DNA from: Smithellaceae bacterium
Lineage (GTDB): Bacteria > Desulfobacterota > Syntrophia > Syntrophales > Smithellaceae
Reading direction: 5' to 3'
Assembly (NCBI GenBank): GCA_963682105.1
Contig: OY821638.1
Location: forward strand, 570,801-634,800
DNA length: 64,000 bases
Shown: positions 2,356-58,050 of the stretch, piece by piece
Layout of the letters: each line of letters begins with the position of its first letter
Numbering within the stretch: the stretch's first letter is position 1
Made by a program: the position numbers and the translations under genes
The notes under the pieces: generated by a model
What the model was told of the DNA's origin: nothing
Seen by the model: the letters and a program-made list of their open reading frames with translations, nothing else
Databases searched by the model: none

Positions 2356-2820
2356 TTATTTCTTTTTTTGAAGCGCCTGCATTAATTTCTGCGCCAGCAG
2401 TCCGCCGGATGCATCCGGCTCGGCGGACGGTGTCCCTCCATAAACCAGGCTTGTCTCCCGGCCGGATTTGCCCTCCGCCAGATGCTCCGCCAACACTTCA
2501 CGGCTGTGGACGTCTTCGTGACAATATACGCAGAGGTTCTCCCAGTTGCTGCCATCCTGGGGATTGTTGTGATGATTGCCGTCTTTGTGATGGACCGTCA
2601 GTAAATGCCGGTTGGGACCCGAAAAATCCCGCCCACAGCGCCCGCACACCAGCCCGTGCATTCGAAGAGATTTCTCCCGATAATCCTCGTCTCCCGGCGC
2701 CTTGGCTGCATTTTTCATCTCGCGCACAATATCCTCGGCTGATTTTTGCGTTCCCGCCGCCTGAGGTTTTTTGGCCACAGCCACGCGGCCCCACTTATTC
2801 GAAAAAGACATCTTCGACAT
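2356..2820 (-). CDS. HNH endonuclease family protein (YajD-like)
   Basis: 154 aa. The motif CGRCG...LTVHHKDGNHHNN...NLCVYCHEDVH is a typical HNH/YajD zinc-finger nuclease signature. Confidence 0.75.
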   Translation of the reverse strand: MSKMSFSNKWGRVAVAKKPQAAGTQKSAEDIVREMKNAAKAPGDEDYREKSLRMHGLVCGRCGRDFSGPNRHLLTVHHKDGNHHNNPQDGSNWENLCVYCHEDVHSREVLAEHLAEGKSGRETSLVYGGTPSAEPDASGGLLAQKLMQALQKKK

Positions 2821-18259: not shown

Positions 18260-18271
18260 TCTCAAGATTAA

Positions 18272-18373
18272 CCCTTTTAATTTAATCCGGCGAGATTGAA
18301 AAAGGACAGCCCCATGAAAAACATCAGCATAAAGTTTATAAAGCCTTTCTCCGCAAGGGGAAAGGCTTTTTTT
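18272..18373 (+). promoter_or_regulatory. PyrR-binding leader RNA with intrinsic terminator (pyr attenuator)
   Basis: A stem-loop CCUUUU...AAUCCGGCGAGAUU...AAAAGG (18272-18304) resembles the PyrR binding-loop consensus (ARUCCAGAGAGGCU...AAGGA). It is followed by the terminator hairpin AAAGCCTTTC / GGAAAGGCTTT plus T7 at 18340-18373, directly upstream of pyrR. Confidence 0.6.
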
Positions 18374-18384
18374 ATGCCCGATGA

Positions 18385-29203: not shown

Positions 29204-29350
29204 TGAACGGAAGTTCCCTTTCCGTACCCAAGGACACTTTTTAAAGAGAAATTTCATTTTTTTTCTCTTCCGGACAGAATTTTTTATCAAATTTGACCGA
29301 TAACAATTTGGTAGTAATAATTCAACGATCAAACCGGGAGAAATACCTGA

Positions 29351-31651
29351 ATGAGCTTTCAGTTTAAACCTGATTCCCTGAACTCCAGCATGGACGAAAG
29401 GCTGAGGATTCGGAAAAATCTTCAGGAAATAACGAACCGCATCCATGCAGCTCAGAACATTGCTCATATTCTTGTTGAAATAAAAGACGGAATTCTCAAT
29501 CTTTTCAACGCTTCTTCCATTACCATCTATGTCGTCGACAAACATCACGATGAAATCTATTCGATGTTTCTGGCCGGCACGCAAATCAAGGAAATTCGCG
29601 TCCCGATAAGCAGCCAGAGTATCGCCGGTTATGTCGCCAATACCTACAATATCGTAAATATCGGAGATGCTTACAACCAGGCTGAACTCAAAGCCATCGA
29701 TTTCGAACTGACCTTCGACTCGAGTTGGGATAAAAAATCAGGATTCCGAACCAGACAAATTCTTGCGGCGCCAATCTTTTATGAAGATCAACTCATGGGC
29801 GTCATACAGATTCTGAACAAAAAATTCGGCGAAGGCAAATTTTCCGAAGACGAAGTCGGCCTGGCCATGGAAATTGCCGAAGTGTTAGGCGTTGCTTTTT
29901 ATAACCAGCAGCGTTTTTCTCGCCGCCGTAAAACCCGCTTCGATTTTCTGATCACCCGCGGTCTGATCAAAGAAGAAGAAATGGAAGCGGCCTGGGATGA
30001 GGCCAGGGAGCAAAAAGAGTCCATCGAACATTTTTTAATGCGTAAGCATCGAATTTCCAAGGATGACATCGGCCATTCCTTTGAAGAATTCTATCGCTGC
30101 CGCTTTATTGAATACAATGAAAAAGCGGTCATTCCCGGCGATTTAATAAAAAATTTACGAAAAGACTACCTTCGCCGGGAAGTTTGGGTCCCATTGGAAA
30201 AAATTGATAATTATATCCATGTTATTGTTGATGATCCCAACAATATCCTGAAAAGAGACGCCATCGAGAACCTGCTGAAAACAAAAAAAGTAAAATACGA
30301 CATCGCTCTGACGGATGATATTCAGAAATTTATCAATCTCTTTTTCCAAACGGGAGACACTGAAAGCTCTTTCACTGATCTACTGGGAAAACTTGACGAT
30401 GAAGACAGGCCTGCCGATGACGAGGAAGGAACAGAGGACGTCACCGAATCCGACAGCGTGATCATGCAGCTTGTCAATAAAATCATCAATGACGCTTACG
30501 CCCGCCGGGCTTCCGATATCCACATTGAACCGAATGTCGGAAAGAAAAACGTGGAAATCCGCTTCCGTGTCGACGGTGATTGCGCTGTTTATCAGACAGT
30601 GCCTTATAGTTACAAAGCCGCCATGATTTCGCGCATTAAAATCATGTCGAACCTGGACATCACCGTTAAAAGACTGCCGCAGGACGGCAAGATCAAATTC
30701 CGACGGGCTTCAGGCGATGAGATTGAGCTTCGTGTGGCGTCAATTCCCACCCAGGGCGGCGTTGAAGACGTCGTCATGCGTATTCTGGCCAAAGGTGAAA
30801 CCATGCCCCTGGAAGACATGGGCCTTTCAAAACGCAATTATAACGAACTCACCAAGACCATTACCAAACCGTACGGTATGATTCTGGTTGTGGGCCCGAC
30901 CGGTTCCGGTAAAACGACCACTCTGCATGCGGCGCTGCATCACATCAATCGTCCGGACCGGAAGATCTGGACCGCCGAAGACCCTGTGGAAATCACTCAG
31001 TATGGTTTGCGCCAGGTGCAGGTTCAGCCTAAAATCGGTTTTGATTTTGCGGCGGCCATGCGATCCTTTTTGCGCGCCGATCCGGACGTCATCATGGTCG
31101 GTGAAATGCGTGACTTTGAAACCGCTAAAACAGGTGTAGAAGCTTCTTTGACCGGCCATCTGGTCTTCAGCACCCTGCATACCAACAGCGCCCCGGAAAC
31201 CATCGTGCGCCTTCTGGATATGGGCATCGATCCTCTTAACTTCGCCGATGCATTGCTGGCCATCCTGGCTCAGCGTCTGGTTCGCACTCTTTGCAAAACC
31301 TGCAAGGAACAGTATCATCCGACCAAAGAAGAATACGATGAAATCGCGGAGAGCTACGGTGCGGAAGAATTTGCAAAACTTGGCATTCCCTATAATGACG
31401 ACTTCAAATTACATCGCCCCAAGGGATGTGATATTTGCGATAAAACCGGCTATAAAGGCAGAATGGGCATTCACGAGCTGCTGGTGGCATCGGACAATAT
31501 CAAAAGACTCATTCAGAAACATGAAGCCGTTGAGGGCCTCAGAAACCAGTCCATGTCGGAAGGCATGACCACGCTTCTCCAGGACGGTATACACAAATCC
31601 CTCGCCGGATTTACCGATTTTACGCAGGTTCGCAGAGTCTGCATCAAATAA
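29351..31651 (+). CDS. GAF domain + T2SSE_N domain + GspE/PilB-family secretion-type ATPase (catalytic motifs intact)
   Basis: 766 aa. GAF-like region at about aa 30-185 and a GspE N-terminal-type domain at about aa 195-335, then an acidic linker. Motifs present: Walker A GPTGSGKTT (30893-30919), Asp box TAEDPVE, Walker B DPDVIMVGEMRD, His box TGHLVFSTLHTN, and tetracysteine CKTC...CDIC. Confidence 0.87.
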   Translation: MSFQFKPDSLNSSMDERLRIRKNLQEITNRIHAAQNIAHILVEIKDGILNLFNASSITIYVVDKHHDEIYSMFLAGTQIKEIRVPISSQSIAGYVANTYNIVNIGDAYNQAELKAIDFELTFDSSWDKKSGFRTRQILAAPIFYEDQLMGVIQILNKKFGEGKFSEDEVGLAMEIAEVLGVAFYNQQRFSRRRKTRFDFLITRGLIKEEEMEAAWDEAREQKESIEHFLMRKHRISKDDIGHSFEEFYRCRFIEYNEKAVIPGDLIKNLRKDYLRREVWVPLEKIDNYIHVIVDDPNNILKRDAIENLLKTKKVKYDIALTDDIQKFINLFFQTGDTESSFTDLLGKLDDEDRPADDEEGTEDVTESDSVIMQLVNKIINDAYARRASDIHIEPNVGKKNVEIRFRVDGDCAVYQTVPYSYKAAMISRIKIMSNLDITVKRLPQDGKIKFRRASGDEIELRVASIPTQGGVEDVVMRILAKGETMPLEDMGLSKRNYNELTKTITKPYGMILVVGPTGSGKTTTLHAALHHINRPDRKIWTAEDPVEITQYGLRQVQVQPKIGFDFAAAMRSFLRADPDVIMVGEMRDFETAKTGVEASLTGHLVFSTLHTNSAPETIVRLLDMGIDPLNFADALLAILAQRLVRTLCKTCKEQYHPTKEEYDEIAESYGAEEFAKLGIPYNDDFKLHRPKGCDICDKTGYKGRMGIHELLVASDNIKRLIQKHEAVEGLRNQSMSEGMTTLLQDGIHKSLAGFTDFTQVRRVCIK

Positions 31652-31890
31652 TCCGCTGTCTTTTCATTTCAAATTACGTCATCGATGTTCATTGTATCTT
31701 TCTCTCGTTTGATCTTCCGCCTGAAAGATCAAACGCTGTTATCTTCTTTACATTTTGTTCAATGCTTTAAACGTTTCATTGAAAGAAAAGAGAGAAAAAG
31801 TCTTCCTTCTCACAGCACAGCATCAAGACCAACCATTATTTCCAATAACAATTCATATGCTTACAAATATCTTTTCAAGATATTCATTTC

Positions 31891-31906
31891 TGGCACGCTC
31901 TTTTCA
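31891..31906 (+). promoter_or_regulatory. Sigma-54-like promoter (TGGCAC-N5-TTTCA), copy 1
   Basis: TGGCACgctctTTTCA has one mismatch to TGGCAC-N5-TTGCA, at the -12 G. It is identical in the second repeat copy, and a conserved 47-bp block lies about 120 bp upstream. Confidence 0.5.
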
Positions 31907-31979
31907 TTAGTATAAAGGCAAATAACACGGCCATGAGGCCTTAAAAAATAAAGCAATTACCCTGAGGAGGTAACAGATC

Positions 31980-32255
31980 ATGAAAAAGACATTAGGAACC
32001 ATCGTAACGGCAGCGGCAGTGATTCTTTTAACGGCAACCTTCGGATTCGCGGAATACGCGGCGGCGGGCGCTTCCGCTTTCCCGTATTTTCAACTGGGAT
32101 GCCTGATTGTGGGCGGCCTGATCCTGGTCAGCCTGAAGAGAAAATTCAATAAAATGTACACGGCCGAAGTGGTCGGCGCTTTCGCACTCTACACGGTTTT
32201 GATGGCGCTCTTCACCAACCCCGTGATCGAAGTTGTCAAGAACATCGTAAGCTGA
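31980..32255 (+). CDS. Small membrane protein, 91 aa (signal peptide + 2 TM), unknown function, copy 1
   Basis: GAGGAGG RBS upstream. MKKTLGTIVTAAAVILLTATFGFA is signal-like. The protein is 100% identical to the product of 38977-39252, with only 2 synonymous nucleotide differences. Confidence 0.65.
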   Translation: MKKTLGTIVTAAAVILLTATFGFAEYAAAGASAFPYFQLGCLIVGGLILVSLKRKFNKMYTAEVVGAFALYTVLMALFTNPVIEVVKNIVS

Positions 32256-32307
32256 ACGGACGTTTCTTTAAAGACGCAGACAGACTTCTCGAAAGGAGGA
32301 CAGGACC

Positions 32308-32547
32308 ATGATCGCAACACATAAAATACAACCCAAGCAGTACCAAACCTTTAACGGGATACTGATGATGTCGGCCTGGAGCTTCGCCATGGTGATTGCA
32401 TCCTTTCTGTTCCTCTGGATCGGATACAAGCTCGACCAGTTCCTGGGCACCGGACCGAATTTCATGATCGGATTATTCATGCTGGCCATCTTCATCTGCG
32501 TGATGAGAATTTATCAGGAAGCGAAAAGACGAATGAAGGAACTTTAA
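32308..32547 (+). CDS. AtpZ/AtpI-family-like small membrane protein, 79 aa, copy 1
   Basis: AGGAGG RBS upstream. Two TM helices joined by a GYKLDQFLGTGPNFMI loop resemble the putative F0F1-ATPase-associated AtpZ family. There are 6 nucleotide differences from copy 2, 5 of them synonymous. Confidence 0.6.
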   Translation: MIATHKIQPKQYQTFNGILMMSAWSFAMVIASFLFLWIGYKLDQFLGTGPNFMIGLFMLAIFICVMRIYQEAKRRMKEL

Positions 32548-32578
32548 CCGCCGCACAGAAAACATGATCTGGAAAATA

Positions 32579-32618
32579 CCCCCCCTCAGGCGGCACCATG
32601 CTTGAGGGGGGATTTTTA
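32579..32618 (+). terminator. Rho-independent terminator of repeat copy 1
   Basis: Stem CCCCCCCTCA / TGAGGGGGG followed by ATTTTT. Confidence 0.7.
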
Positions 32619-38603: not shown

Positions 38604-38887
38604 ATTCCTTTTTTGAACATTTGTCAAGGGGGGGGGATTGGAATCGAATCGAAACAACATGAATGCATTTGACGAGAATTTAAGATGAAAGAAAACCAAA
38701 TAGGATCCCCGCCTGTTCAACACCTTTTTTATTTTTATGAATTTTCACATTTCGTTTAATGCTTAAACGTTTCATTGAAAGAAAAGAGAGAATAAGACAT
38801 TCCCGCGGTTTGCCCCACACTGTCATTAATCGTTATTTGTATCGTTATATCTTATATTTACAACTATCTTCCAAACGTCTGCATTTC

Positions 38888-38903
38888 TGGCACGCTCTTT
38901 TCA
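38888..38903 (+). promoter_or_regulatory. Sigma-54-like promoter (TGGCAC-N5-TTTCA), copy 2
   Basis: Identical to the 31891-31906 element. Confidence 0.5.
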
Positions 38904-38976
38904 TTAGTATAAAGGCAAATAACACGGCCATGAGGCCCTAAAAAATAAAACAATTACCCCGAGGAGGTAACAGATC

Positions 38977-39252
38977 ATGAAAAAGACATTAGGAACCATC
39001 GTAACGGCAGCGGCAGTGATTCTTTTAACGGCAACCTTCGGATTCGCGGAATACGCGGCGGCGGGCGCTTCCGCTTTCCCGTATTTTCAACTGGGATGCC
39101 TGATTGTGGGCGGCCTGATCCTGGTCAGCCTGAAGAGAAAATTCAATAAAATGTACACGGCCGAAGTGGTCGGCGCTTTCGCTCTCTACACGGTTTTGAT
39201 GGCGCTCTTCACCAACCCCGTGATCGAAGTTGTCAAAAACATCGTAAGCTGA
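38977..39252 (+). CDS. Small membrane protein, 91 aa, copy 2
   Basis: Protein identical to the product of 31980-32255. Confidence 0.65.
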   Translation: MKKTLGTIVTAAAVILLTATFGFAEYAAAGASAFPYFQLGCLIVGGLILVSLKRKFNKMYTAEVVGAFALYTVLMALFTNPVIEVVKNIVS

Positions 39253-39304
39253 ACGGACGTTTCTTTAAAGACGCAGACAAACTTCTCGAAAGGAGGACAG
39301 GACC

Positions 39305-39544
39305 ATGATCGCAACACATATAATACAACCCAAGCAGTACCAAACCTTTAACGGGATACTGATGATGTCGGCCTGGAGCTTCGCCATGGTGATTGCTTCG
39401 TTCCTGTTCCTCTGGATCGGATACAAGCTCGACCAATTCCTGGGCACCGGACCGAATTTCATGATCGGATTGTTCATGCTGGCCATCTTCATCTGCGTGA
39501 TGAGAATTTATCAGGAAGCGAAAAGACGAATGAAGGAACTTTAA
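39305..39544 (+). CDS. AtpZ/AtpI-family-like small membrane protein, 79 aa, copy 2
   Basis: One amino-acid difference (K6I) from the product of 32308-32547. Confidence 0.6.
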   Translation: MIATHIIQPKQYQTFNGILMMSAWSFAMVIASFLFLWIGYKLDQFLGTGPNFMIGLFMLAIFICVMRIYQEAKRRMKEL

Positions 39545-39574
39545 CCGCCGCACAGCAAACATGATCTGGAAAAT

Positions 39575-39615
39575 CCCCCCCCTCAAGCGTCACCATGTTT
39601 GAGGGGGGTTTCTTG
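39575..39615 (+). terminator. Rho-independent terminator of repeat copy 2
   Basis: Stem CCCCCCCCTCAA / TTGAGGGGGG followed by a T-rich tract. It abuts the stop of the convergent DUF218 gene. Confidence 0.65.
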
Positions 39616-39620
39616 TTTTA

Positions 39621-40217
39621 TCAAGCCCAGAGCGAATAAAGCATAAACCAGGATATCTTCAAATATTCACGCCAGACTTTTTTCCAGTCGGTCGGCTTTA
39701 ACTGCCATATATTCCGAGGAGCCGCTTCGTAAGGAGTCGGCGAGAAATAATGTTTTCCGTCAATGCCGAATACTCTGGTCACAATCATTTGAATGCGGCG
39801 CATATGATAGGGGGAGCTTACAAAGATTGCCGTTTTTTTCCCGTAAAGATCCATGGTCTTTTTAGCATCCAGCAATTCCAGATGGGTGTCTTCAAAGTAA
39901 TAAGGAGCATAAGAGTTGTTTTTCCTGTAAATGTTGTTGGGGTCCGTTTTATTTTGCAGGTTTTTGATGACGCCCTGATCGATAAAATAAATTTTATGGT
40001 AAGCAGGGATAATAAGATAATCCGATAGCCCCATTTGCATCAGGTCCTGAGCATGGCGGTGGCGGGCGCTAAAATCGGGACCCAGCAAAAGAACAATCGC
40101 ATCCGATTTTTCACATGGCGTTTTATAAAGCAAAAATCCGGGCGCGGCAAATACTCCGACTGCAATAATAAGAACCGGAACAATCAGAATCCGCGCGATT
40201 TTTTTAATAATCTTCAC
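39621..40217 (-). CDS. YdcF/DUF218 (ElyC-like) family protein
   Basis: 198 aa with an N-terminal TM anchor. The IVLLLG and FVSSPYHMRR motifs are typical of DUF218. Confidence 0.7.
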   Translation of the reverse strand: MKIIKKIARILIVPVLIIAVGVFAAPGFLLYKTPCEKSDAIVLLLGPDFSARHRHAQDLMQMGLSDYLIIPAYHKIYFIDQGVIKNLQNKTDPNNIYRKNNSYAPYYFEDTHLELLDAKKTMDLYGKKTAIFVSSPYHMRRIQMIVTRVFGIDGKHYFSPTPYEAAPRNIWQLKPTDWKKVWREYLKISWFMLYSLWA

Positions 40218-40227
40218 TAAAATGTCC

Positions 40228-40256
40228 TTGACAATACAACTAATTATTTATATCAA
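40228..40256 (+). promoter_or_regulatory. Candidate sigma-70 promoter for the kinase/NtrC pair
   Basis: TTGACA (40228-40233), a 17-nt spacer, then TATCAA (40251-40256). Confidence 0.4.
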
Positions 40257-40431
40257 AACGACGATATCGCTAAAGATTTAACCCATGTTGAAGAGGTACC
40301 TGTGTTTAATGCCCGGATAAAGCAAATACGCCGTCGTCAGAAATGACTTTTACTAAAAATATTTTAGACAGCTTTCCTTCGTAAATTCAATATAAATTAT
40401 TTATTTTATTTGCAAAGGTTTTGTAACAACC

Positions 40432-41508
40432 ATGTATGATGCCACAACAGAAAGACGCCGCAATTCCGATCACGATAAAAGCATGGATATTTCGCTTTAT
40501 AAAAGCATTATGGAAACGATTGATCTGGGCATTGTCATTCTCGGCATTAAAAGAAGAGACCTCATCTTCAAGAACCGGTTTGCTTCCGAAATTTTCCAGC
40601 ACAATCCGAATCTTCTGGAATACCGAAATCTTCTGTCCTTGCTGTTGACGGACTATGGCAGCAAGCCTGAAGAAGAAATTTTTGGGAAAAATTACACACT
40701 CCGCTTTAAAAATCGTCTTCTGGGCTACACGCCATACATGATTTCCGAAAGCTTCATCATGATTATCATCCGCGACATTACGGAAAGAAGTCGTCTGGAA
40801 TCCATCGCGGAAGCCGTAAATTCAATGGATAACATCGGTTATGTTTTCTCCGGCATCCGGCACGAACTGGGCAATCCCATCAATTCCATAAAAATGACGT
40901 TGAGCGTGCTTAAACGAAACTTAAGCGAATATTCTCCGGCCGCCGTTGAAAAATTTGTCGACCGCGCTATGACGGAAATTTCGCGTGTTGAATTCCTGCT
41001 TCAGGCGCTGAAAAGCTTCAGCATCTTCGAAAATCCGGAAATTCAAACCGTTCAGATCGATGATTTTCTGACGCGTTTCATCGCCCTGATCAGCAATGAC
41101 TTACAGCAGTCCGGGATAAAGATCGGTAAAACGGTTGAATCAAACGTCAAGACCGTCAGTGCTGATCCCCGCCTGCTGCATCAGGTGATGATGAATCTGA
41201 TCACCAACGCCTCAGACGCTCTTACCGGTAAGGAAAACAGAAAGATCAACATCCGGGCGCTCAAACACGACGGTTTAGTCGCCATCGTTGTTGATGACAA
41301 CGGATGTGGAATGTCCAAAGAGGCTCAGGCCAACCTGTTTAAACCTTTTTTCACAACAAAGAATCGGGGAACAGGCCTGGGATTGATGATCACCCTGAAG
41401 ATGGTGACGCTCATGAAGGGCAACATGGAAATTAAAAGCATCAAAGACAAGGGAACGCGAGTAGCCGTCATTTTGCCCCTGGGAGCCAGGCCCAATGCTA
41501 AAAGTTAA
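40432..41508 (+). CDS. Cytoplasmic sensor histidine kinase (PAS-like + HisKA + HATPase_c)
   Basis: H box FSGIRHELGNPIN, N box MMNLITNASDA, G1 DDNGCGM and G2 GTGLGL are present, with no TM helices. The start is uncertain (alternative Met at 40483). Confidence 0.82.
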   Translation: MYDATTERRRNSDHDKSMDISLYKSIMETIDLGIVILGIKRRDLIFKNRFASEIFQHNPNLLEYRNLLSLLLTDYGSKPEEEIFGKNYTLRFKNRLLGYTPYMISESFIMIIIRDITERSRLESIAEAVNSMDNIGYVFSGIRHELGNPINSIKMTLSVLKRNLSEYSPAAVEKFVDRAMTEISRVEFLLQALKSFSIFENPEIQTVQIDDFLTRFIALISNDLQQSGIKIGKTVESNVKTVSADPRLLHQVMMNLITNASDALTGKENRKINIRALKHDGLVAIVVDDNGCGMSKEAQANLFKPFFTTKNRGTGLGLMITLKMVTLMKGNMEIKSIKDKGTRVAVILPLGARPNAKS

Positions 41509-42844
41509 AAGAAAAATTCTGATTATCGACGACAATGACATTTTTTGCGAATCCGTCAAAGACCTGCTTACTGATCAAAACACGGACATCCTAACCGCCA
41601 ACACGGGTAAAGACGGCCTGCAACTGTGCACTGAAAACAAAATTGACGTTGTTATTCTGGACCAGAAGCTTCCCGACACACAGGGTGTGACGTTGTGTCC
41701 TTCCATCCTGAAACAAAACGAACAGACCAAAATCATTTTTGTCACCGCTTACCCGAGCTTCGCCAATGCCATAGACGCCATCAAAGTCGGGGCGCACGAT
41801 TATCTTTCCAAACCTTTCGAAATGGCGGAACTGGAATTGACCATCAAGCAGGCTTTCCGCACGCAGGAACTGGAAAAAACCGAGCAGATTCAGAATTACC
41901 AGAATATCCGGGAAAGCGAGGAGAATGATCTGATAGCCGGCGAAGGCGCATTTGATGAGATCAAACGCATGATTAATCTGGCGGCTGACAGCGATGCGCC
42001 TGTTCTCATTACCGGAGAAACCGGAACAGGCAAGAACGTTGTGGCGCGTGCCATTCACTATAAAAGCTCGCTTCCGGCCAGGCTTTTCCTGACAGCCAAT
42101 TGCGCCGCCTTTCCGGAAAACCTCATCGAGGCGGAATTGTTCGGATCGGAAAAGGGAGCCTTCACCGGCGCCAGCGCGACCCGCAAAGGCATATTCGAAC
42201 TGGCTGAGGGAGGAACGCTGTTACTCGATGAAATCGGCTCAATGCCCATTCATCTGCAGTCCAAGCTTTTAGGCGTCCTGGAAGAAAAAAAAATCCGGCG
42301 CATCGGCAGTGAAACCGTTAAACCCATCAATGTTCGTGTCATTGCCGCGGCCAATAACGACCTGGAAGAAGCCACTAAGGACAAAACATTTCGAAACGAT
42401 CTCTATTACCGCCTCAGCGTGATTCGCATTCATCTCCCGCCGTTGCGCGAAAGAAAAGAAGACATCCCCAAACTGTGCGAATATTTCATAGCAAAAATGT
42501 CCCGCGATGTGAATGTTCACCTCTCCGATGCGGAGGTGTCCCGGCTTATGGACTATGAGTGGCCCGGAAACGTCCGTGAATTGAAAAACGTCATTGAGCG
42601 TTCGCTGATCATTCAGCGAGGTCAACCTCTTCGACCTTCCCTGCTTTTGCGAACCGGCGTCACGCCTGCGGCAAACGCTTCCGCCGGACAGGACGATGAT
42701 GAAATCGTACCTCTTGAAGACACGGAAAAAAAATGCATCAGCCAGGCTCTGAAAAAATATAACGGCAACTACTCCCAATCCGCCAGGGCGCTGGGTATTT
42801 CCCTTTCCACACTCAAAAGAAAAGTAAAATCCTATCATCTTTAA
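41495..42844 (+). CDS. Sigma-54-dependent response regulator (NtrC family: REC + AAA+ + Fis-type HTH)
   Basis: 449 aa. REC domain (ILIIDDN, VVILDQKLPD), Walker A GETGTGKN, sigma-54 contact loop GAFTGA, Walker B LLLDEIG, and a C-terminal HTH SQSARALGISLSTLKRK. It overlaps the kinase gene by 14 nt. Confidence 0.92.
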   Translation: MLKVKRKILIIDDNDIFCESVKDLLTDQNTDILTANTGKDGLQLCTENKIDVVILDQKLPDTQGVTLCPSILKQNEQTKIIFVTAYPSFANAIDAIKVGAHDYLSKPFEMAELELTIKQAFRTQELEKTEQIQNYQNIRESEENDLIAGEGAFDEIKRMINLAADSDAPVLITGETGTGKNVVARAIHYKSSLPARLFLTANCAAFPENLIEAELFGSEKGAFTGASATRKGIFELAEGGTLLLDEIGSMPIHLQSKLLGVLEEKKIRRIGSETVKPINVRVIAAANNDLEEATKDKTFRNDLYYRLSVIRIHLPPLRERKEDIPKLCEYFIAKMSRDVNVHLSDAEVSRLMDYEWPGNVRELKNVIERSLIIQRGQPLRPSLLLRTGVTPAANASAGQDDDEIVPLEDTEKKCISQALKKYNGNYSQSARALGISLSTLKRKVKSYHL

Positions 42845-42978
42845 AAAGCTGTTGTGATACAAATCGCCTTTTCGATCAAAATGAATCATTCAGCTTGAAC
42901 GTAAACCAGGGAAATTGTTTCCAGATATCCAACACAAGTAATTGATATAACTCATTTACACAAAATACATTATTATTT

Positions 42979-42994
42979 GGGCACACCCTTTGCT
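42979..42994 (+). promoter_or_regulatory. Sigma-54 promoter (GGGCAC-N5-TTGCT)
   Basis: tGGGCACaccctTTGCTt has the GG and GC dinucleotides at canonical spacing. It lies 135 bp downstream of the NtrC-type gene and about 95 bp upstream of the REC gene ATG. Confidence 0.65.
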
Positions 42995-43089
42995 TGGTTG
43001 TCTTAGAATCGTCTATTCATTAAGACTTAAGCGATTTGGGGATTTCCTTAAAAAAGACTGAAGTTCTAAAAGAAGATAAGTTGAATGAG

Positions 43090-43542
43090 ATGGCACAGGA
43101 AAAAAACGATGTATTAACAACCGAAACCGTGAAAAGCCCGAAATACCATCGAAAAGATTCTGGTATTCTGGAAGTTTTAATTGTCGATGATGAAGAAACG
43201 CTTCTTTTAAGTATAGACGACGGTTTAAGCATTTATAAGCAATATTTCACACTCCTGACGGCCACAAACGGCGTTGATGCAGTGAATCTGCTGAAATCAA
43301 AAATGTCGATTGACCTGGTCATTACAGATCTTAAGATGCCCAGAATGGATGGTTTTGAACTTCTAACGTACATACAAAGAAACTTTCCCCATATTCCCGT
43401 TATTCTCATGACGGCTTACGGTACGCCTAAAATTGAGGAAATTGTCAAAACGATGGGGATTTACGGTTACCTGGAAAAACCACTGGACATCAATACGATT
43501 GCAGAAACTATTTTTGAGGCATTGAAGATAAAAATTCATTGA
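43090..43542 (+). CDS. Single-domain response regulator (receiver only)
   Basis: Start at MAQEKND; the track ORF starts at TTG 43036. The receiver has the acidic pocket VDDEE, phospho-acceptor VITDLKMP, plus MTAYG and EKP, and there is no output domain. Confidence 0.8.
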   Translation: MAQEKNDVLTTETVKSPKYHRKDSGILEVLIVDDEETLLLSIDDGLSIYKQYFTLLTATNGVDAVNLLKSKMSIDLVITDLKMPRMDGFELLTYIQRNFPHIPVILMTAYGTPKIEEIVKTMGIYGYLEKPLDINTIAETIFEALKIKIH

Positions 43543-43573: not shown

Positions 43574-46174
43574 ATGGCGAAGATTGGTCATTTTAATAAA
43601 AACACTCAAAAAGAGGAACTTTCAGAAGCGCCTCAGGTCGAGGAACTCTTAAAGAATCTTGAGTTTCACAAAGCCATTCAGAGCATTACCAGCCGCATCA
43701 GCACCGCACCAACCCTTCGCGATATTTTAGTCGATATCAAAGAAGACATCCGCAATCTGTTCAATATCCACATCCTGACCATCTACCTGATTGATAAAAG
43801 CAGGAAGGAAATTTTTACAATCCGGAATGACGGCAGCGAAATCCGCTTCCCTGTCAACAATTCAACGCTGGCCGGTTATGTCACCCAAAAGAAACGGATG
43901 CTTCATATTGCCGATGCCTATAATGAACGGGAAATTCGAAAAATTCACGATCTTCTCGCCATAGACCGGACTCTGGATAAAAAGACGGGCATCCTGACGG
44001 GTCAGGTCATCGCCAGTCCCATCATGCGCGACAATCTTATCCTCGGCGTCATGGAAATTATGAACAAAAAGGGCGGCGATAACATCGATGATTATAATCA
44101 GATTTTTCTCGACGAAATTACAGGCGCTCTGGCCAAAGCCTTTTTCATGCACCTGAACTTGACCGAAGCCAAACAAATGTACGGCGCAAAATATGACTGG
44201 CTGATCAAGAACGGCGTGATCACCGCTGATCAGATGGACAACGTTATCAGAGAAATCAGCGAAAACGCAGAAGATATCTCATCTGTTCTTTTAGACAGTT
44301 ATCATGTCTCAAAAACCGACATCGGCAGGGCTCTGGCATCCTACTACTCCTGCCAGTTCGTACCATACAGCGACGACATGCCCATCCCACGCGACCTGCT
44401 GATCGGCATTGAGAAATACACGCTGATCAACATGCTGTGGGTCCCGATTAAAGTCGTCAAGGGAAAAATCCATGTGGCAATGGATGACCCTTCCGATCAG
44501 ATCCGGAAAAACAAAATAGAAGATATTCTGGAGACTAAATCCATTCAGTATGATGTGGCCATCGCCTCCGACATTTTGCGTTATATCAACCGTTTTTATT
44601 ATTCAGACGAAGAGGACGTCCCACCGCGTCAGAAATTTGAAATCCCGGCTCCGCAAAAACAGTTCACTTTGAGTCCTGTTTCTCTCAAACCCGATGAGAA
44701 CAAAGAAATCGTCTGCAGTGAAGAATTAACAGCTCCGCAACGATTAAAACCGGTTGTACTGGAGCCGTCAGGCGAGTTATCCGAGGAAGTTGCCACCCGG
44801 GGAATGAAAACAAGACAAGCCTCCTTATCATCAGGGGATGCGGTGAAACTTCTTGTTACACACACACATGAATTACCCAACCAACCCGAAAAACGAAAAT
44901 TTCCGGATATTGACTCTCTGTCTGAAATCAAAAACCATGCTCTGCCAAAACCATCCAATGTCGTCAGTCTGCCGGAAGGCCAGATGCCTCAGCCTCTGAC
45001 CAGCATCATTAACAATGCCTGCAGCCGTCGAGCCTCCGATATACACCTGGAACCGGATTCGGCCACGGGCCGGGTAACACTGCGCGTGCGAATCGACGGA
45101 CAGTTTTCAATTCTTCAGACGCTGTCTCCTTCTGAATACGAAACCTTGACCACGCAAGTAAAAACCCTGGCCAATCTCGACAACCAGAACACCTCTATCA
45201 TTCAAAACGGCCAACTGAGCCTGAAAAGACCTTCAGGAGATGAACTCCACATGAGGGTTTCTTTTATTCCAACCCGCTCCGGTATGGAAGACACGGTTAT
45301 CCATCTTTCAACCAGACTGAAAAAAATACCGCTGGAGCTTTTGGGTTTGTCGGAAAATAGTTATACGGACATGGTGAATATTCTGCGTCAGCCCAGAGGG
45401 TTGATCCTGATTACAGGCCCCGCTGATTCAGGTATAACCACAACGCTTCATGCGTGTCTTGATAACATCAACACACCTGAGATTAAAATCTGGACGGCGG
45501 AGGAACCGATAGAGATTGTACAGACCGGATTGCGGCAGGTTCAGATCGCCCCGCACAAAGGATTTGACTTTACAACGGTCCTGAATTCATTCCTGATGGC
45601 AGATCCGGACGTCATCATGGCCAGCCGGATCGATAACCAAACCACGGCCAAGCTCTGCATGAAGGCGGCCGTCAAAGGATGTCTCGTTCTGGGATCACTG
45701 TGGACGGAAAACATTCAGGATACCATCGACCGATGTCTGGACATGGAAACAGGCCATCTTTTATTTGCCGACGCCATGCTGGCTGTGGTTCAGCAAAGAC
45801 TGATCAAAACCCTCTGTCCGAAATGCAAGGAAAAATACCGTCCCAGCCCTGAAGAATATGAGGAGCTTGCTCAGATTTACGGGCAAGAAGATTTCGAAAA
45901 ACTCAACCTGCCCTATTCCAACGCCTTCAGTCTTTTCCGTCCCAAAGGTTGCCCTGATTGCGGACAGACGGGATATATGGGCAGGATGAGCGTTTCCGAA
46001 ACCCTGATTTTCACGTCTCAGATTAAACGAATGATCCGACGGAAAGAATCCTCCCTGCTGGTCTATCAGGCGGCGGTTACGTCGGGAATGACCACCCTGA
46101 TGCAGGACGGCATTAATAAAGTTATACAGGGATACAGCGACAGCAGGCATGTGAGACTGACTTGCCTGAGATAG
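43574..46174 (+). CDS. GAF + T2SSE_N + GspE/PilB-like protein with degenerate ATPase motifs (predicted pseudo-ATPase)
   Basis: 866 aa with the same architecture as the 29351-31651 product. The Walker A equivalent is GPADSGITT (45416-45442, Lys to Ile), Walker B is DPDVIMASRIDN (Glu lost) and the His box is KGCLVLGSLWTEN (both His lost). The tetracysteine CPKC...CPDC is retained, and the linker is about 130 aa of low-complexity sequence. Confidence 0.82.
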   Translation: MAKIGHFNKNTQKEELSEAPQVEELLKNLEFHKAIQSITSRISTAPTLRDILVDIKEDIRNLFNIHILTIYLIDKSRKEIFTIRNDGSEIRFPVNNSTLAGYVTQKKRMLHIADAYNEREIRKIHDLLAIDRTLDKKTGILTGQVIASPIMRDNLILGVMEIMNKKGGDNIDDYNQIFLDEITGALAKAFFMHLNLTEAKQMYGAKYDWLIKNGVITADQMDNVIREISENAEDISSVLLDSYHVSKTDIGRALASYYSCQFVPYSDDMPIPRDLLIGIEKYTLINMLWVPIKVVKGKIHVAMDDPSDQIRKNKIEDILETKSIQYDVAIASDILRYINRFYYSDEEDVPPRQKFEIPAPQKQFTLSPVSLKPDENKEIVCSEELTAPQRLKPVVLEPSGELSEEVATRGMKTRQASLSSGDAVKLLVTHTHELPNQPEKRKFPDIDSLSEIKNHALPKPSNVVSLPEGQMPQPLTSIINNACSRRASDIHLEPDSATGRVTLRVRIDGQFSILQTLSPSEYETLTTQVKTLANLDNQNTSIIQNGQLSLKRPSGDELHMRVSFIPTRSGMEDTVIHLSTRLKKIPLELLGLSENSYTDMVNILRQPRGLILITGPADSGITTTLHACLDNINTPEIKIWTAEEPIEIVQTGLRQVQIAPHKGFDFTTVLNSFLMADPDVIMASRIDNQTTAKLCMKAAVKGCLVLGSLWTENIQDTIDRCLDMETGHLLFADAMLAVVQQRLIKTLCPKCKEKYRPSPEEYEELAQIYGQEDFEKLNLPYSNAFSLFRPKGCPDCGQTGYMGRMSVSETLIFTSQIKRMIRRKESSLLVYQAAVTSGMTTLMQDGINKVIQGYSDSRHVRLTCLR

Positions 46175-56173: not shown

Positions 56174-56249
56174 TCCCCAGTAGCTCAGTCGGTAGAGCGG
56201 CTGGCTGTTAACCAGCATGTCCGTGGTTCGAGTCCGCGCTGGGGAGCCA
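56174..56249 (+). tRNA. tRNA-Asn (anticodon GTT), CCA encoded
   Basis: Manual cloverleaf: acceptor TCCCCAG/CTGGGGA, D arm GCTC-AGTCGGTA-GAGC, anticodon arm GCTGG-CTGTTAA-CCAGC, variable loop ATGTC, T arm CGTGG-TTCGAGT-CCGCG, discriminator G, then CCA. Confidence 0.93.
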
Positions 56250-57537: not shown

Positions 57538-58050
57538 ATGATGCCTCTGGGATATACAGATCGCCTCCCCAAAAGTACCAGAATCCGGCAACGATTTACA
57601 GGAGACGTTTTGATACCAACAACAGACAGCAACCTGCATCAGGAAGCAATACGAAGAACGCTGGCCCTTCGGGCCGGGGATGCCCCTGATGCGAACGCGG
57701 TTGCCGAAGCCACCTTGAGCACCTGGCGCCAGGTGGAAGTCCGGCTCACACCGGTGATCGGCGAGCGGGGTGTTGATGTTCTCCTGGACCGCACACTGCA
57801 CTTGACAAGCGCTGTTTTCCCCTGGCTGGCATTTACCGGCAATCAAGAGGACAGGACCGCTGCGCTTTCATATGTCAGGATATGCCTGGCAGGCAACCAG
57901 ACCAATATTGCCATAGAAGCAAGCTATACGCTTCTTACGAACTTCGTTAATCTTTTGGCGACCTTAATTGGAGAATCATTAACTGAGCGTTTGTTGAGTC
58001 CGGTCTGGGTGCCCCCGTTACCGGCATCTGAACAGGAGACGCCATCATGA
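57538..58050 (+). CDS. Hypothetical protein, no family recognised, upstream of and coupled to the KaiC-like gene
   Basis: 170-aa ORF whose stop overlaps the KaiC-like start (ATGA). An alternative TTG start at 57610 is preceded by GGAG. No family motif was recognised. Confidence 0.6.
   Translation: MMPLGYTDRLPKSTRIRQRFTGDVLIPTTDSNLHQEAIRRTLALRAGDAPDANAVAEATLSTWRQVEVRLTPVIGERGVDVLLDRTLHLTSAVFPWLAFTGNQEDRTAALSYVRICLAGNQTNIAIEASYTLLTNFVNLLATLIGESLTERLLSPVWVPPLPASEQETPS

What the first reader, a model, noticed from the sequence alone, without database searches (positions are those of the whole stretch)
29351..31651. Orphan GAF-fused GspE/PilB-type ATPase with no secretion or pilus genes nearby
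The 766-aa product has a complete hexameric secretion-ATPase core: Walker A GPTGSGKTT, Asp box, Walker B with the catalytic Glu, His box and a Cys4 zinc motif. This core is fused to an N-terminal GAF domain and a T2SSE_N-type domain. No GspF/PilC platform protein, pilin, secretin or prepilin peptidase is recognisable anywhere in the 64 kb. The neighbours are glyQS upstream and a duplicated small-membrane-protein module downstream. A GAF sensor on this ATPase family implies ligand-gated motor activity with an unknown client.
Basis: partly seen in the sequence, partly recalled or inferred. Interest (0 to 1): 0.7.

Follow-up and report, generated by a model that had tools for sequence, protein, structure and literature searches.

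The report
Cyclic-nucleotide-type GAF on pilus-motor ATPase
This gene encodes an intact pilus/secretion-type motor ATPase from a widespread, unstudied subfamily whose usual c-di-GMP sensor site is lost and replaced by a sensor domain of the cAMP/cGMP-binding kind, which suggests a new way for bacteria to switch a surface-filament motor on and off.

Summary
Window 29351..31651 (+) encodes a 766-aa protein with GAF (aa 36-182), MshEN (196-336) and a T2SSE core (366-762). All catalytic motifs and the Cys4 site are intact. No PilC/GspF, pilin, secretin or prepilin peptidase was found in the 64 kb.

The gene is not a one-off orphan. It belongs to a large subfamily, with at least 576 hits in GTDB species genomes. 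Its ATPase core lies equally far from PilB and GspE.

- The GAF is of the cyclic-mononucleotide type. Its closest solved relatives are CyaB2 and PDE5/2/10, and it carries an NKFDE-like motif.
- Both c-di-GMP half-sites of MshEN have lost their essential glycines.
- In a betaproteobacterial clade the gene sits in a conserved operon: PP2C, FHA, CHASE2-cyclase, class-II phosphodiesterase, cNMP-binding protein, GAF-ATPase, GAF-HD-GYP, often followed by pilA.
- Two Syntrophales loci place it directly before CHASE2-kinase, PP2C and FHA genes.
- Five Smithella loci have a lone PilC-like gene about 5-6 kb downstream.

Best reading: a cAMP/cGMP-gated type IV filament motor whose machinery is encoded elsewhere. 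Ligand and client are inferred, not shown.

Verdict: new variant of a known kind, interest about 0.6.

The parts
29293..29321 (+). Sigma-70-like promoter candidate (TTGACC, 17 nt spacer, AATAAT) about 30 nt before the start codon. It lies in the 147-nt gap after glyS.
   Evidence: One search scored 10 of 12 matches. This is consensus only: the number of such sites in the region equals the shuffled expectation, so it is weak evidence.
29351..31651 (+). The GAF-MshEN-T2SSE ATPase gene, 766 aa ('ATPase1').
   Evidence: There are 120 homologues of 78-100% identity, nearly all 763-768 aa (a few up to 786), in Smithellaceae.
29456..29896 (+). GAF domain (aa 36-182), of the cyclic-nucleotide-binding type. 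It is preceded by a long N-terminal helix (aa 10-33) and followed by a long exit helix (aa 166-190).
   Evidence: Pfam GAF. A family profile against PDB gives CyaB2 at E=7e-37 and PDE5 at 3.5e-29. AF2 model pLDDT is 87.5.
29936..30124 (+). MshEN N-subdomain (aa 196-258), a helical bundle. Both 24-residue c-di-GMP half-sites are degenerate: TRF replaces RLG in the first and SIE replaces xLG in the second.
   Evidence: Alignment to PilF GSPII domains. Motif definition and mutant data from PMC5013675. The NCBIfam c-di-GMP motif scores 16.7 bits against a cut-off of 38.
30128..30358 (+). MshEN C-subdomain (aa 260-336), an alpha/beta fold of the kind that in GspE contacts GspL.
   Evidence: Pfam PF05157, 39.5 bits. 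Foldseek matches to PilF GSPII-B and MshE.
30446..31636 (+). T2SSE ATPase core (aa 366-762), comprising the N2 and C-terminal domains. It follows an acidic linker (aa 349-368).
   Evidence: Pfam PF00437, 395.7 bits. Core scores against PDB are PilF 333, GspE 332 and M. xanthus PilB 330 bits.
30893..30919 (+). Walker A GPTGSGKTT (aa 515-523).
30974..30991 (+). Asp box AEDPVE (aa 542-547).
31079..31114 (+). Walker B DPDVIMVGEMRD with the catalytic Glu (aa 577-588).
31151..31186 (+). His box TGHLVFSTLHTN (aa 601-612).
31292..31438 (+). Tetracysteine zinc site: CKTC (aa 648-651) and CDIC (aa 693-696).
   Evidence: The site is conserved in paralogues.
31706..31735 (+). Stem-loop 55 nt after the stop codon, a weak terminator candidate.
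43574..46174 (+). Paralogue 'ATPase2' (866 aa) of the same subfamily, with a degenerate GAF, an MshEN domain and a long insert. It is a predicted pseudo-ATPase. Walker A reads GPADSGITT (Lys to Ile), Walker B reads IMASRID (the Gly-Glu pair with the catalytic Glu replaced by Ser-Arg) and the His-box histidines are lost.
   Evidence: Orthologues carrying the same losses occur in L003, L008 and P0133.
39621..43542 (.). Genes that lie between the two paralogues in close relatives too: DUF218 (39621..40217, minus strand), histidine kinase (40432..41508), sigma-54 REC-AAA-HTH regulator (41495..42844) and a single-domain REC (43036..43542).
   Evidence: The same order ATPase1-DUF218-HK-RR-(REC)-ATPase2-mutS is found in L003 and L008.

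Best explanation
The gene encodes a catalytically competent, hexamer-type assembly ATPase of the PilB/GspE class. It belongs to a distinct and widespread GAF-MshEN-T2SSE subfamily.

In this subfamily the ancestral c-di-GMP pocket of the MshEN domain has been lost. A GAF domain of the cyclic-mononucleotide-binding type has been added in front of it.

The most likely mechanism has three steps:
1. cAMP or cGMP binds the GAF.
2. The signal passes through the long GAF exit helix and the MshEN domain to the ATPase ring.
3. This switches ATP turnover, or docking onto a PilC/GspF-type platform, of a type IV filament machine (most likely type IV pili) whose other genes lie elsewhere in the genome.

In some lineages a CHASE2 Ser/Thr kinase, a PP2C phosphatase and an FHA protein probably add a phospho-threonine layer of control. 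In this Smithella lineage a catalytically dead paralogue may act as a regulatory partner.

What is shown: the domains, the intact motifs, family membership, the kinship of the GAF, the loss of the c-di-GMP motif, and the gene neighbourhoods.

What is inferred: the ligand, the client machine, and the direction of regulation.
For: Anatomy
- All ATPase motifs are intact.

Subfamily
- The N-terminal 366 aa finds 5571 cluster representatives at E up to 1e-3 and 212 at E up to 1e-30.
- At least 576 stretches in GTDB species genomes encode a relative.
- phmmer scores of the window core (aa 366-766):
  - 723 bits to a Syntrophus relative.
  - 488-497 bits to betaproteobacterial members.
  - 330-333 bits to PilF, GspE and M. 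xanthus PilB.

GAF type
- A family profile hits CyaB2 (1YKD) at E=7e-37, PDE5 at 3.5e-29, PDE2A at 8e-25 and PDE10A at 9e-24. This is far ahead of non-cNMP GAFs such as PtsP at 8e-10.
- The AF2 model (pLDDT 87.5) matches CyaB2, PDE5A, PDE2A, PDE10A and the cAMP-bound Lcd1 GAF by Foldseek.
- Conservation across about 185 family GAFs:
  - The NKFDE positions are N 96%, K/R 81%, F 97%, D 78% and E 52%.
  - The pocket positions are D127 95%, T134 88%, G93 98% and T58 80%.
- The NKFDE motif marks cNMP-binding GAFs (PMC4411481, PMC11977230).
- The CyaB2 cAMP contacts T293, D356 and N359 map to the conserved T58, D127 and S/T130.

c-di-GMP site lost
- The glycines equivalent to MshE G11 and G40 are replaced by F and by an invariant E. 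G11L and G40I abolish binding, and XpsE lost binding through G11V and G40L.

Context
- In 80 betaproteobacterial metagenome loci the gene has conserved upstream neighbours:
  - class-II phosphodiesterase in 54 of 57 loci.
  - CHASE2-cyclase in 38 of 40.
  - FHA in 27 of 28.
  - PP2C in 27 of 27.
  - cNMP_binding-Rhodanese in 55 of 66.
- It is followed by GAF-HD-GYP in 34 of 34 loci and by a type IVa pilin in at least 18 of 34.
- Two Syntrophales loci have the order GAF-ATPase, CHASE2-kinase, PP2C, FHA, OmpA-like.
- Five Smithella loci have a lone T2SSF gene about 5-6 kb downstream.
Against: - No ligand binding has been measured.
- In the window protein and its Smithellaceae relatives the CyaB2 R291 position is Ser. 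The last two NKFDE positions read E-V rather than D-E. This particular GAF may therefore bind a different nucleotide or bind weakly.
- No cyclase or phosphodiesterase lies in the 64-kb window or next to the gene in most Syntrophales loci.
- The cyclase operon comes from one fairly narrow betaproteobacterial lineage. Its N-termini are 82-91% identical to each other, plus one locus at 58%. It counts as few independent events.
- Pilin adjacency is seen only in that lineage.
- The PilC-like gene in Smithella is 5-6 kb away on the other strand, among housekeeping genes.
- The source genome's inventory of pilus genes and cyclases could not be read.
- The tree is a crude neighbour-joining tree.
Confidence: 0.5

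Rival explanations
1. The ATPase is what is described above, but the GAF does not sense a cyclic mononucleotide. It either binds another small molecule or serves only as a dimerisation and scaffolding module that organises the hexamer.
For: - In the Smithellaceae clade the adenine-N1 contact of CyaB2 (R291) is Ser, and the NKFDE tail reads E-V.
- No cyclase or phosphodiesterase is linked to the gene in Syntrophales.
- The top Foldseek hit is the GAF of the HD-GYP protein 4MCW, for which I know of no assigned ligand (own knowledge).
- NKFDE residues do not contact the ligand directly (PMC11977230).
- GAF domains bind many kinds of ligand (PMC4411481).
Against: - The family profile is far closer to the cNMP-binding GAFs (E of 1e-37 to 1e-23) than to any other GAF.
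- The phosphate and ribose pocket positions D127, S/T130 and T134 are 73-95% conserved.
- In Betaproteobacteria the gene sits in one operon with a cyclase, a class-II cNMP phosphodiesterase and a CAP-type cNMP-binding protein.
Confidence: 0.27
2. The protein is not a filament motor. It is a signalling or regulatory ATPase that works without a pilus or secretion apparatus. In this lineage it would act with its dead paralogue ATPase2 and the adjacent histidine kinase, sigma-54 regulator and REC protein. In other lineages it would act with the CHASE2-kinase/PP2C/FHA module.
For: - None of about 170 loci places the gene in a PilC/PilM-Q or Gsp operon.
- All conserved partners are signalling proteins.
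- The pseudo-ATPase paralogue has been retained in several genomes with the same catalytic losses.
- The MshEN domain has lost its known ligand site.
Against: - The whole motor core is under strong conservation, including the Zn site and the N2/CTD architecture typical of filament assembly ATPases.
- A pilA gene follows the operon in at least 18 of 34 betaproteobacterial loci.
- A lone T2SSF platform gene lies nearby in five Smithella loci.
- To my knowledge, every characterised PilB/GspE-clade ATPase serves a type IV filament machine.
Confidence: 0.15
3. It is simply the organism's ordinary housekeeping PilB (or GspE), displaced from its operon and carrying an unremarkable extra N-terminal domain.
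For: - The best NCBIfam matches are PilB (505 bits) and GspE (484 bits).
- Sources name the homologues 'GspE/PulE family protein' or 'pilus assembly protein'.
- Pilus genes appear scattered in Syntrophales, as shown by a lone T2SSF gene.
Against: - Both scores are well under the equivalog cut-offs of 675.65 and 630.25.
- The core is equidistant from PilB and GspE, at 330-333 bits. It is much closer to other GAF-ATPases, at 440-723 bits.
- Other, canonical-length MshEN-T2SSE ATPases coexist in related genomes, for example 566 aa in L026.
- The GAF and the degenerate MshEN site are conserved across phyla.
Confidence: 0.08

Closest known systems
MshE of Vibrio cholerae, and c-di-GMP-binding PilB/PilF ATPases (Thermus thermophilus PilF; Myxococcus PilB)
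   Same: The core is the same PilB/GspE-class hexameric ATPase, with Walker A/B, Asp and His boxes and a Cys4 site. An MshEN-fold domain sits in front of the core, so a second-messenger sensor sits N-terminal to the motor.
   Different: The two 24-residue c-di-GMP motifs are degenerate, with the essential glycines replaced by Phe and Glu. An extra cNMP-type GAF precedes MshEN. The gene is not in an msh or pil operon. The core scores only about 330 bits to these proteins, against 440-720 bits within its own subfamily.
GspE/XpsE/EpsE type II secretion ATPases
   Same: The core and the N1 (MshEN-fold) domain are shared. Like XpsE, the protein has lost c-di-GMP binding residues. The NCBIfam GspE score is 484 bits.
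   Different: The score is below the GspE equivalog cut-off of 630. No gsp genes lie nearby in any locus. The GAF domain is absent from characterised GspE proteins.
Cyclic-nucleotide-binding GAF domains: Anabaena CyaB2, mammalian PDE2A/5/6/10, Leptospira Lcd1
   Same: These are the closest sequence and fold relatives of the GAF. The NKFDE-type motif and the D/T pocket residues are conserved in the family. The N-terminal sensor is linked to its output domain by a long helix.
   Different: The output domain is a secretion-type ATPase rather than a cyclase, phosphodiesterase or GGDEF domain. There is one GAF rather than a tandem pair in this protein, although family members with two or three GAFs exist. 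In Smithellaceae the CyaB2 R291 position is Ser and the motif tail reads E-V.
Threonine-phosphorylation control of type VI secretion (PpkA kinase, PppA phosphatase, Fha1) in Pseudomonas aeruginosa (recalled from own knowledge, not tested here)
   Same: A membrane Ser/Thr kinase, a PP2C phosphatase and an FHA protein are encoded with the ATPase of an envelope machine.
   Different: The machine and the ATPase family differ. The kinase here carries a CHASE2 sensor. No phosphorylation target is known. The resemblance is a lead only.

Membership tests
T2SSE / PilB-GspE secretion ATPase superfamily (PF00437) | Match to the family profile over the full N2 plus C-terminal ATPase domains | tested here: met
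   PF00437 scores 395.7 bits over aa 366-762, covering profile positions 3-370 of 370.
T2SSE / PilB-GspE secretion ATPase superfamily (PF00437) | Walker A, Asp box, Walker B with catalytic Glu, and His box all intact | tested here: met
   GPTGSGKTT at 515-523, AEDPVE at 542-547, DPDVIMVGEMRD at 577-588 and TGHLVFSTLHTN at 601-612.
T2SSE / PilB-GspE secretion ATPase superfamily (PF00437) | Tetracysteine zinc site typical of the PilB/GspE branch | tested here: met
   CKTC at 648-651 and CDIC at 693-696. They align with the CxxC pairs of PilF, GspE and PilB.
Type IV-A pilus assembly ATPase PilB (TIGR02538 equivalog) | Score at or above the curated equivalog cut-off | tested here: not met
   505.3 bits against a cut-off of 675.65.
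Type IV-A pilus assembly ATPase PilB (TIGR02538 equivalog) | Encoded with pilC, pilT, pilM-Q or pilin genes | tested here: not met
   None in the 64-kb window. None adjacent in 76 Syntrophales loci. The only links are a pilA downstream in a betaproteobacterial clade and a lone T2SSF gene 5-6 kb away in 5 loci.
Type II secretion ATPase GspE (TIGR02533 equivalog) | Score at or above the curated equivalog cut-off, and a gsp operon context | tested here: not met
   484.1 bits against a cut-off of 630.25. No Gsp genes occur in any locus examined.
PilT/PilU retraction ATPases (TIGR01420) | Score at or above the cut-off, and the short architecture lacking an N1 domain | tested here: not met
   181.8 bits against a cut-off of 319.1. 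The protein has long N-terminal domains.
MshEN c-di-GMP receptor domain | MshEN fold (helical N-subdomain plus alpha/beta C-subdomain) | tested here: met
   PF05157 scores 39.5 bits. The AF2 model matches PilF GSPII-B (8PDK) and MshE (5HTL), with TM-score normalised to the target of 0.68-0.75.
MshEN c-di-GMP receptor domain | Two tandem 24-residue motifs RLGxx(L/V/I)(L/V/I)xxG(L/V/I)(L/V/I)xxxxLxxxLxxQ, including the essential Gly at position 3 of each | tested here: not met
   Motif 1 reads TRFDFLITRGLI...A and motif 2 reads SIEHFLMRKHRI...F. The position-3 glycines are Phe, and a Glu that is invariant in the family. G11L and G40I abolish binding in MshE. The NCBIfam c-di-GMP motif scores 16.7 bits against a cut-off of 38.
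Cyclic-nucleotide-binding GAF domains (CyaB2 / PDE2, 5, 6, 10 type) | GAF fold, with cNMP-binding GAFs as the closest relatives | tested here: met
   PF01590 scores 32.4 bits. The family profile hits 1YKD at E=7e-37, 3LFV at 3.5e-29 and 1MC0 at 8e-25. Foldseek finds the same set plus cAMP-bound Lcd1.
Cyclic-nucleotide-binding GAF domains (CyaB2 / PDE2, 5, 6, 10 type) | NKFDE signature motif | tested here: inconclusive
   In the family the positions are N 96%, K/R 81%, F 97%, D 78% and E 52%. The window protein has N156, K157, F164, E168 and V169, so three residues match exactly, one is a conservative change and one is lost.
Cyclic-nucleotide-binding GAF domains (CyaB2 / PDE2, 5, 6, 10 type) | Conservation of ligand-contact positions (CyaB2 R291, T293, I308, D356, N359) | tested here: inconclusive
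   T58, F73, D127 and S130 are conserved equivalents. The R291 equivalent is Ser in Smithellaceae but Arg in 54% of the family, including the betaproteobacterial clade.
Cyclic-nucleotide-binding GAF domains (CyaB2 / PDE2, 5, 6, 10 type) | Measured binding of cAMP or cGMP | not testable with these tools
   This needs ITC, DSF or DRaCALA on purified protein.

The most novel reading that the evidence does not exclude
A cyclic mononucleotide (cAMP or cGMP) directly gates a type IV filament assembly motor through a GAF domain that has functionally replaced the c-di-GMP site of MshEN. This motor is further controlled by a CHASE2 Ser/Thr-kinase/PP2C/FHA module. In Smithella it forms mixed rings with a conserved, catalytically dead paralogue. 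That would be a new, direct route from cNMP signalling to pilus or secretion dynamics, found across several phyla.
Probability: 0.3. Interest if true: 0.75.

Novelty: new variant of a known kind. Interest (0 to 1): 0.6.

Why it matters
The well-established direct small-molecule input to PilB/MshE-type motors is c-di-GMP bound to MshEN. cAMP is known to act on pili only indirectly, through transcription factors such as Vfr or SYCRP1 (own knowledge).

A widespread motor subfamily that has swapped the c-di-GMP site for a cAMP/cGMP-type GAF would be a direct post-translational link between cyclic mononucleotides and filament assembly. The fact that in one clade it is encoded with its own cyclase, phosphodiesterase and pilin strengthens this reading.

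The idea is immediately testable with purified protein. It also bears on syntrophs such as Smithella and Syntrophus, where, to my knowledge, type IV pili have been proposed to carry electrons between partners.

The conserved pseudo-ATPase paralogue offers a natural case of a dead subunit in this motor family.

Tried and rejected
- The 20-sequence N-terminal alignment A1 was too diverse for locus scanning. A 5-sequence alignment was used instead.
- That scan returned only Syntrophales among its best 80 loci. Wider taxonomy therefore came from protein searches and from look-ups of the contigs that encode the hits.
- Literature searches for a GAF-fused PilB/GspE found no description of this architecture in the held library. 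That is not proof of absence.
- The small membrane ORFs downstream were considered as the client and rejected:
  - The 79-aa ORF recurs downstream in only 8 of 76 loci.
  - The synteny downstream of the ATPase varies.
  - The duplication is a near-identical local repeat around a glycerol cassette.
- Co-transcription with glyQS was considered. glyS is upstream in 67 of 76 Syntrophales loci. However, there is a conserved gap of 100-150 nt and a promoter-like site. glyQS is absent from non-Syntrophales loci. The linkage therefore looks like inherited synteny.
- A riboswitch in the 5' region was searched for and not found.
- NCBIfam gave no specific name for the kinase, regulator or REC genes between the paralogues.
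- A first ORF clustering of the betaproteobacterial loci failed. The anchor rule caught only 19 loci and high G+C content gave spurious ORFs. It was replaced by tblastn with the operon proteins.


Full report
**1. The observation**

Window 29351..31651 (+) is an ATG-started ORF of 766 aa. Pfam finds three domains:
- T2SSE, aa 366-762, 395.7 bits.
- MshEN (the former T2SSE_N), aa 260-336, 39.5 bits.
- GAF, aa 50-182, 32.4 bits against a cut-off of 22.4.

All catalytic motifs are intact:
- Walker A GPTGSGKTT at 515-523.
- Asp box AEDPVE at 542-547.
- Walker B DPDVIMVGEMRD at 577-588.
- His box TGHLVFSTLHTN at 601-612.
- Two CxxC pairs, at 648-651 and 693-696.

glyQ and glyS lie upstream, and two small membrane ORFs lie downstream. 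I scanned every non-overlapping ORF of at least 150 aa in the 64 kb, plus several smaller ones, against Pfam. None is a PilC/GspF, a pilin, a secretin or a prepilin peptidase. No prepilin signal motif exists in any frame.

**2.

A second gene of the same subfamily lies at 43574..46174 (866 aa).
- Its N-terminus is 36% identical to the target over 318 residues, and its core is 46% identical.
- Its GAF is degenerate (Pfam E=0.0026).
- Its catalytic residues are gone. Walker A reads GPADSGITT (Lys to Ile), Walker B reads IMASRID (the Gly-Glu pair with the catalytic Glu replaced by Ser-Arg), and the His-box histidines are lost. The Cys4 site is kept.
- The same losses recur in orthologues in L003 and L008 and in representative P0133. 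This is a conserved pseudo-ATPase, not a decaying gene.

Close Smithella relatives show the order glyS, ATPase1, (79-aa ORF), DUF218, histidine kinase, sigma-54 regulator, (REC), ATPase2, then mutS on the opposite strand.

The window differs only by a glycerol-catabolism cassette. The cassette is bracketed by a near-identical direct repeat of about 870 bp that carries the two small membrane ORFs (31747-32615 and 38743-39611).

In a Syntrophus aciditrophicus-like genome the order is glyQS, ATPase1, mutS, with no second paralogue.

**3. The family**

- The closest homologues are 78-100% identical, nearly all 763-768 aa long (a few up to 786), and come from Smithella/Smithellaceae. The window is therefore from a Smithellaceae genome (Syntrophales).
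- The N-terminal 366 aa alone finds 5571 cluster representatives at E up to 1e-3, and 212 at E up to 1e-30, among 1.84 billion. These include full-length proteins of 734-830 aa and versions with two or three GAFs of 940-1164 aa.
- At least 576 stretches in GTDB species genomes encode a relative.
- Named sources include Syntrophales, Desulfobacteraceae, NC10, Thermodesulfobacteriota, and Burkholderiales/Rhodocyclaceae.
- phmmer scores of the window's core (aa 366-766):
  - 723 bits to a Syntrophus relative.
  - 488-497 bits to betaproteobacterial members.
  - 440-580 bits to most other GAF-bearing representatives.
  - Only 330-333 bits to T. thermophilus PilF, Vibrio GspE and M. xanthus PilB.
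- NCBIfam scores are 505 bits for PilB and 484 bits for GspE. Both are well below their equivalog cut-offs of 675.65 and 630.25.

The protein therefore belongs to a distinct subfamily within the PilB/GspE assembly-ATPase class, about equally far from PilB and GspE. The neighbour-joining tree is crude. I rely on the score gap rather than on its topology.

**4. The GAF domain**

In an alignment of 20 diverse N-termini the GAF is the best conserved part.

Sequence kinship, from a profile of that alignment searched against all PDB sequences:
- Cyclic-nucleotide-binding GAFs come first: CyaB2 (1YKD) at E=7e-37, PDE5 at 3.5e-29, PDE2A at 8e-25 and PDE10A at 9e-24.
- GAFs of other kinds are far behind, for example PtsP at 8e-10.

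Fold kinship:
- An AlphaFold2 model of aa 1-366 has mean pLDDT 87.5.
- By Foldseek it matches the same set, plus the cAMP-bound Lcd1 GAF and the GAF of the HD-GYP protein 4MCW.

Motif and pocket conservation:
- The NKFDE motif distinguishes cNMP-binding GAFs (PMC4411481 and PMC11977230).
- Across about 185 family GAFs the five positions are N 96%, K/R 81%, F 97%, D 78% and E 52%.
- Pocket positions are also conserved: D127 95%, T134 88%, G93 98% and T58 80%.
- The CyaB2 cAMP contacts are R291, T293, I308, T309, D356 and N359. Using the alignment, they map to window residues S56, T58, F73, L74, D127 and S130.
- My memory of the PDE2A GAF-B contacts (S424, D439, I458/A459, D485, T488, T492, E512) maps onto the same conserved columns. 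That list is from memory and was not checked here.

Caveats for this particular protein:
- In Smithellaceae the R291 position is always Ser.
- The last two NKFDE positions read E-V.
- The betaproteobacterial clade keeps Asp-Arg-x-Thr, exactly as CyaB2 does.

**5. The MshEN domain**

The fold is present. c-di-GMP binding, however, needs two 24-residue motifs, RLGxxLLxxGLLxxxxLxxxLxxQ (PMC5013675).
- Aligned to PilF GSPII domains, the window reads TRFDFLITRGLIKEEEMEAAWDEA and SIEHFLMRKHRISKDDIGHSFEEF.
- The position-3 glycines are Phe, and a Glu that is invariant across the family.
- In MshE, G11L and G40I abolish binding. XpsE lost binding through G11V and G40L, among other changes.

I conclude that the canonical c-di-GMP site is lost throughout this subfamily.

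**6. Gene neighbourhoods**

*Syntrophales (76 loci)*
- glyS is immediately upstream in 67 loci and glyQ in 56. The downstream side varies.
- None of the 76 loci has adjacent pilus or secretion genes.
- Five Smithella loci (L041-L044, L053) carry a lone T2SSF (PilC/GspF) gene about 5-6 kb downstream on the other strand, itself among housekeeping genes.
- Two loci (L065, a complete chromosome, and L071) have a tightly packed run on the same strand: GAF-ATPase, CHASE2-Ser/Thr kinase, PP2C, FHA, OmpA-like.

*Other Desulfobacterota-type loci* (L082, L083, L087, L088, L089)
- These are orphans among housekeeping genes.

*Betaproteobacteria*
- Three loci found from proteins and 80 metagenome loci show a conserved operon.
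- Upstream neighbours, counted among loci with enough flank:
  - PP2C in 27 of 27.
  - FHA in 27 of 28.
  - CHASE2-class III cyclase in 38 of 40.
  - Class-II cNMP phosphodiesterase in 54 of 57.
  - cNMP_binding-Rhodanese in 55 of 66.
  - CHASE2-kinase in 12 of 16.
- A GAF-HD-GYP gene follows 20 nt after the stop codon in 34 of 34 loci.
- A classical type IVa pilin (PF00114, with the GFTLIELMIVVAIIGILAA N-terminus) lies within 6 kb downstream in at least 18 of 34 loci, usually right after the HD-GYP gene.
- These 80 loci are closely related to each other, at 82-91% identity. They count as few independent observations. One more distant locus (58% identity, L084) shares the arrangement.

**7. 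How it most likely works**

*Shown:*
- It is a competent PilB/GspE-class motor of a distinct subfamily.
- Its GAF is of the cNMP kind.
- The c-di-GMP site is lost.
- Signalling genes recur beside it: cyclase, phosphodiesterase and a CAP-type protein in one phylum, and CHASE2-kinase/PP2C/FHA in two phyla.
- There is physical linkage to pilA in one clade, and loose linkage to a lone platform gene in another.

*Inferred:*
- cAMP or cGMP binds the GAF.
- The long exit helix (aa 166-190 in the model) and MshEN relay this to the ring.
- ATP turnover, or docking on a PilC-type platform of a type IV filament machine encoded elsewhere, is switched.
- The FHA, kinase and phosphatase module adds phospho-threonine control.
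- In this Smithella lineage the dead paralogue may join or regulate the ring.

I put about 0.5 on this composite. The weakest links are the ligand for the Smithellaceae GAF and the identity of the client.

**8. Rivals**

- The GAF binds something else or is only structural (0.27).
- The protein is a signalling ATPase with no filament client (0.15).
- It is merely a displaced housekeeping PilB or GspE (0.08).

The evidence for and against each is given in the rival entries.

**9. Novelty**

Databases already list this architecture under generic names such as 'GspE/PulE family protein' and 'GAF domain-containing'. In the held literature I found no description or experiment on a GAF-fused PilB/GspE ATPase.

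It is a new variant of a known kind. The motor and the sensor fold are both familiar. Three things are not described: the combination itself, the replacement of the c-di-GMP site, and the conserved cNMP/FHA signalling context.

**10. Other checks**

- No Rfam family matches the 5' region.
- A sigma-70-like site precedes the gene at 29293-29321, and a weak stem-loop follows it. Neither exceeds chance expectation for the region.

Noticed in passing
window 43574..46174 (+): A paralogue of the target (866 aa) has a degenerate GAF, an MshEN domain and a long low-complexity insert. It has lost the Walker A Lys, the Walker B Glu and the His-box histidines but keeps the Cys4 site. The same losses occur in orthologues in L003, L008 and P0133. 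It is a conserved pseudo-ATPase, encoded just after a single-domain REC and a histidine kinase/sigma-54 regulator pair.
   Followed up: partly
window 31747..32615 and 38743..39611: A direct repeat of about 870 bp (92.8% nucleotide identity) carries a 91-aa and a 79-aa (AtpZ-like, PF09527) membrane ORF whose products are 100% and 99% identical. The two copies bracket a glycerol-catabolism cassette: FGGY kinase, FAD oxidase, GlpD-like dehydrogenase and a GntR regulator. The cassette is absent from the same position in close relatives L003 and L008, so this looks like a recent insertion or duplication.
   Followed up: partly
L065 12280..17069 and L071 12362..17144: In two Syntrophales genomes the GAF-ATPase is followed directly by a CHASE2-Ser/Thr kinase, a PP2C phosphatase, an FHA protein and a coiled-coil OmpA-family protein. 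The kinase, PP2C and FHA proteins are 33-45% identical to those of the betaproteobacterial operon.
   Followed up: partly
L090-L169, for example L085 592..10530: A soil betaproteobacterial operon has the order CHASE2-kinase, PP2C, FHA, CHASE2-cyclase, class-II phosphodiesterase, cNMP_binding-Rhodanese, GAF-ATPase, GAF-HD-GYP, often followed by pilA. It puts cNMP, c-di-GMP and phospho-threonine signalling next to a pilin gene.
   Followed up: partly
L053 17496..18704 (-), also L041-L044: A lone T2SSF (PilC/GspF) gene lies among housekeeping genes (DUF1178, SpoU methylase, pyrF) about 5-6 kb from the GAF-ATPase. This suggests that type IV filament genes are scattered in Smithella genomes.
   Followed up: no
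L026 1319..3019 (-), L023 2483..4180 (-), L063 3675..6413 (-): Further MshEN-T2SSE ATPases without a GAF (566 aa; a split copy; 912 aa) lie a few kb upstream of glyQS in some Syntrophales. One is next to a histidine kinase. None has pilus genes beside it.
   Followed up: no
window 58047..61204 (+): A KaiC-like double-domain ATPase (496 aa) is followed without a gap by a GGDEF-EAL protein (555 aa), and is preceded by a 170-aa ORF with no Pfam match.
   Followed up: no
window 18270..18375 (+): An Rfam PyrR binding site (56.2 bits, gathering score 54) lies upstream of a pyrR-like phosphoribosyltransferase, pyrB and a dihydroorotase-like gene. A tRNA lies at 56174..56246.
   Followed up: no
window 2356..2820 (-): An isolated 154-aa ORF carrying an HNH endonuclease domain sits between an NAD synthase gene and a hydantoinase gene. 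A related HNH_3 ORF sits among hydantoinase genes in the distant locus L082.
   Followed up: no
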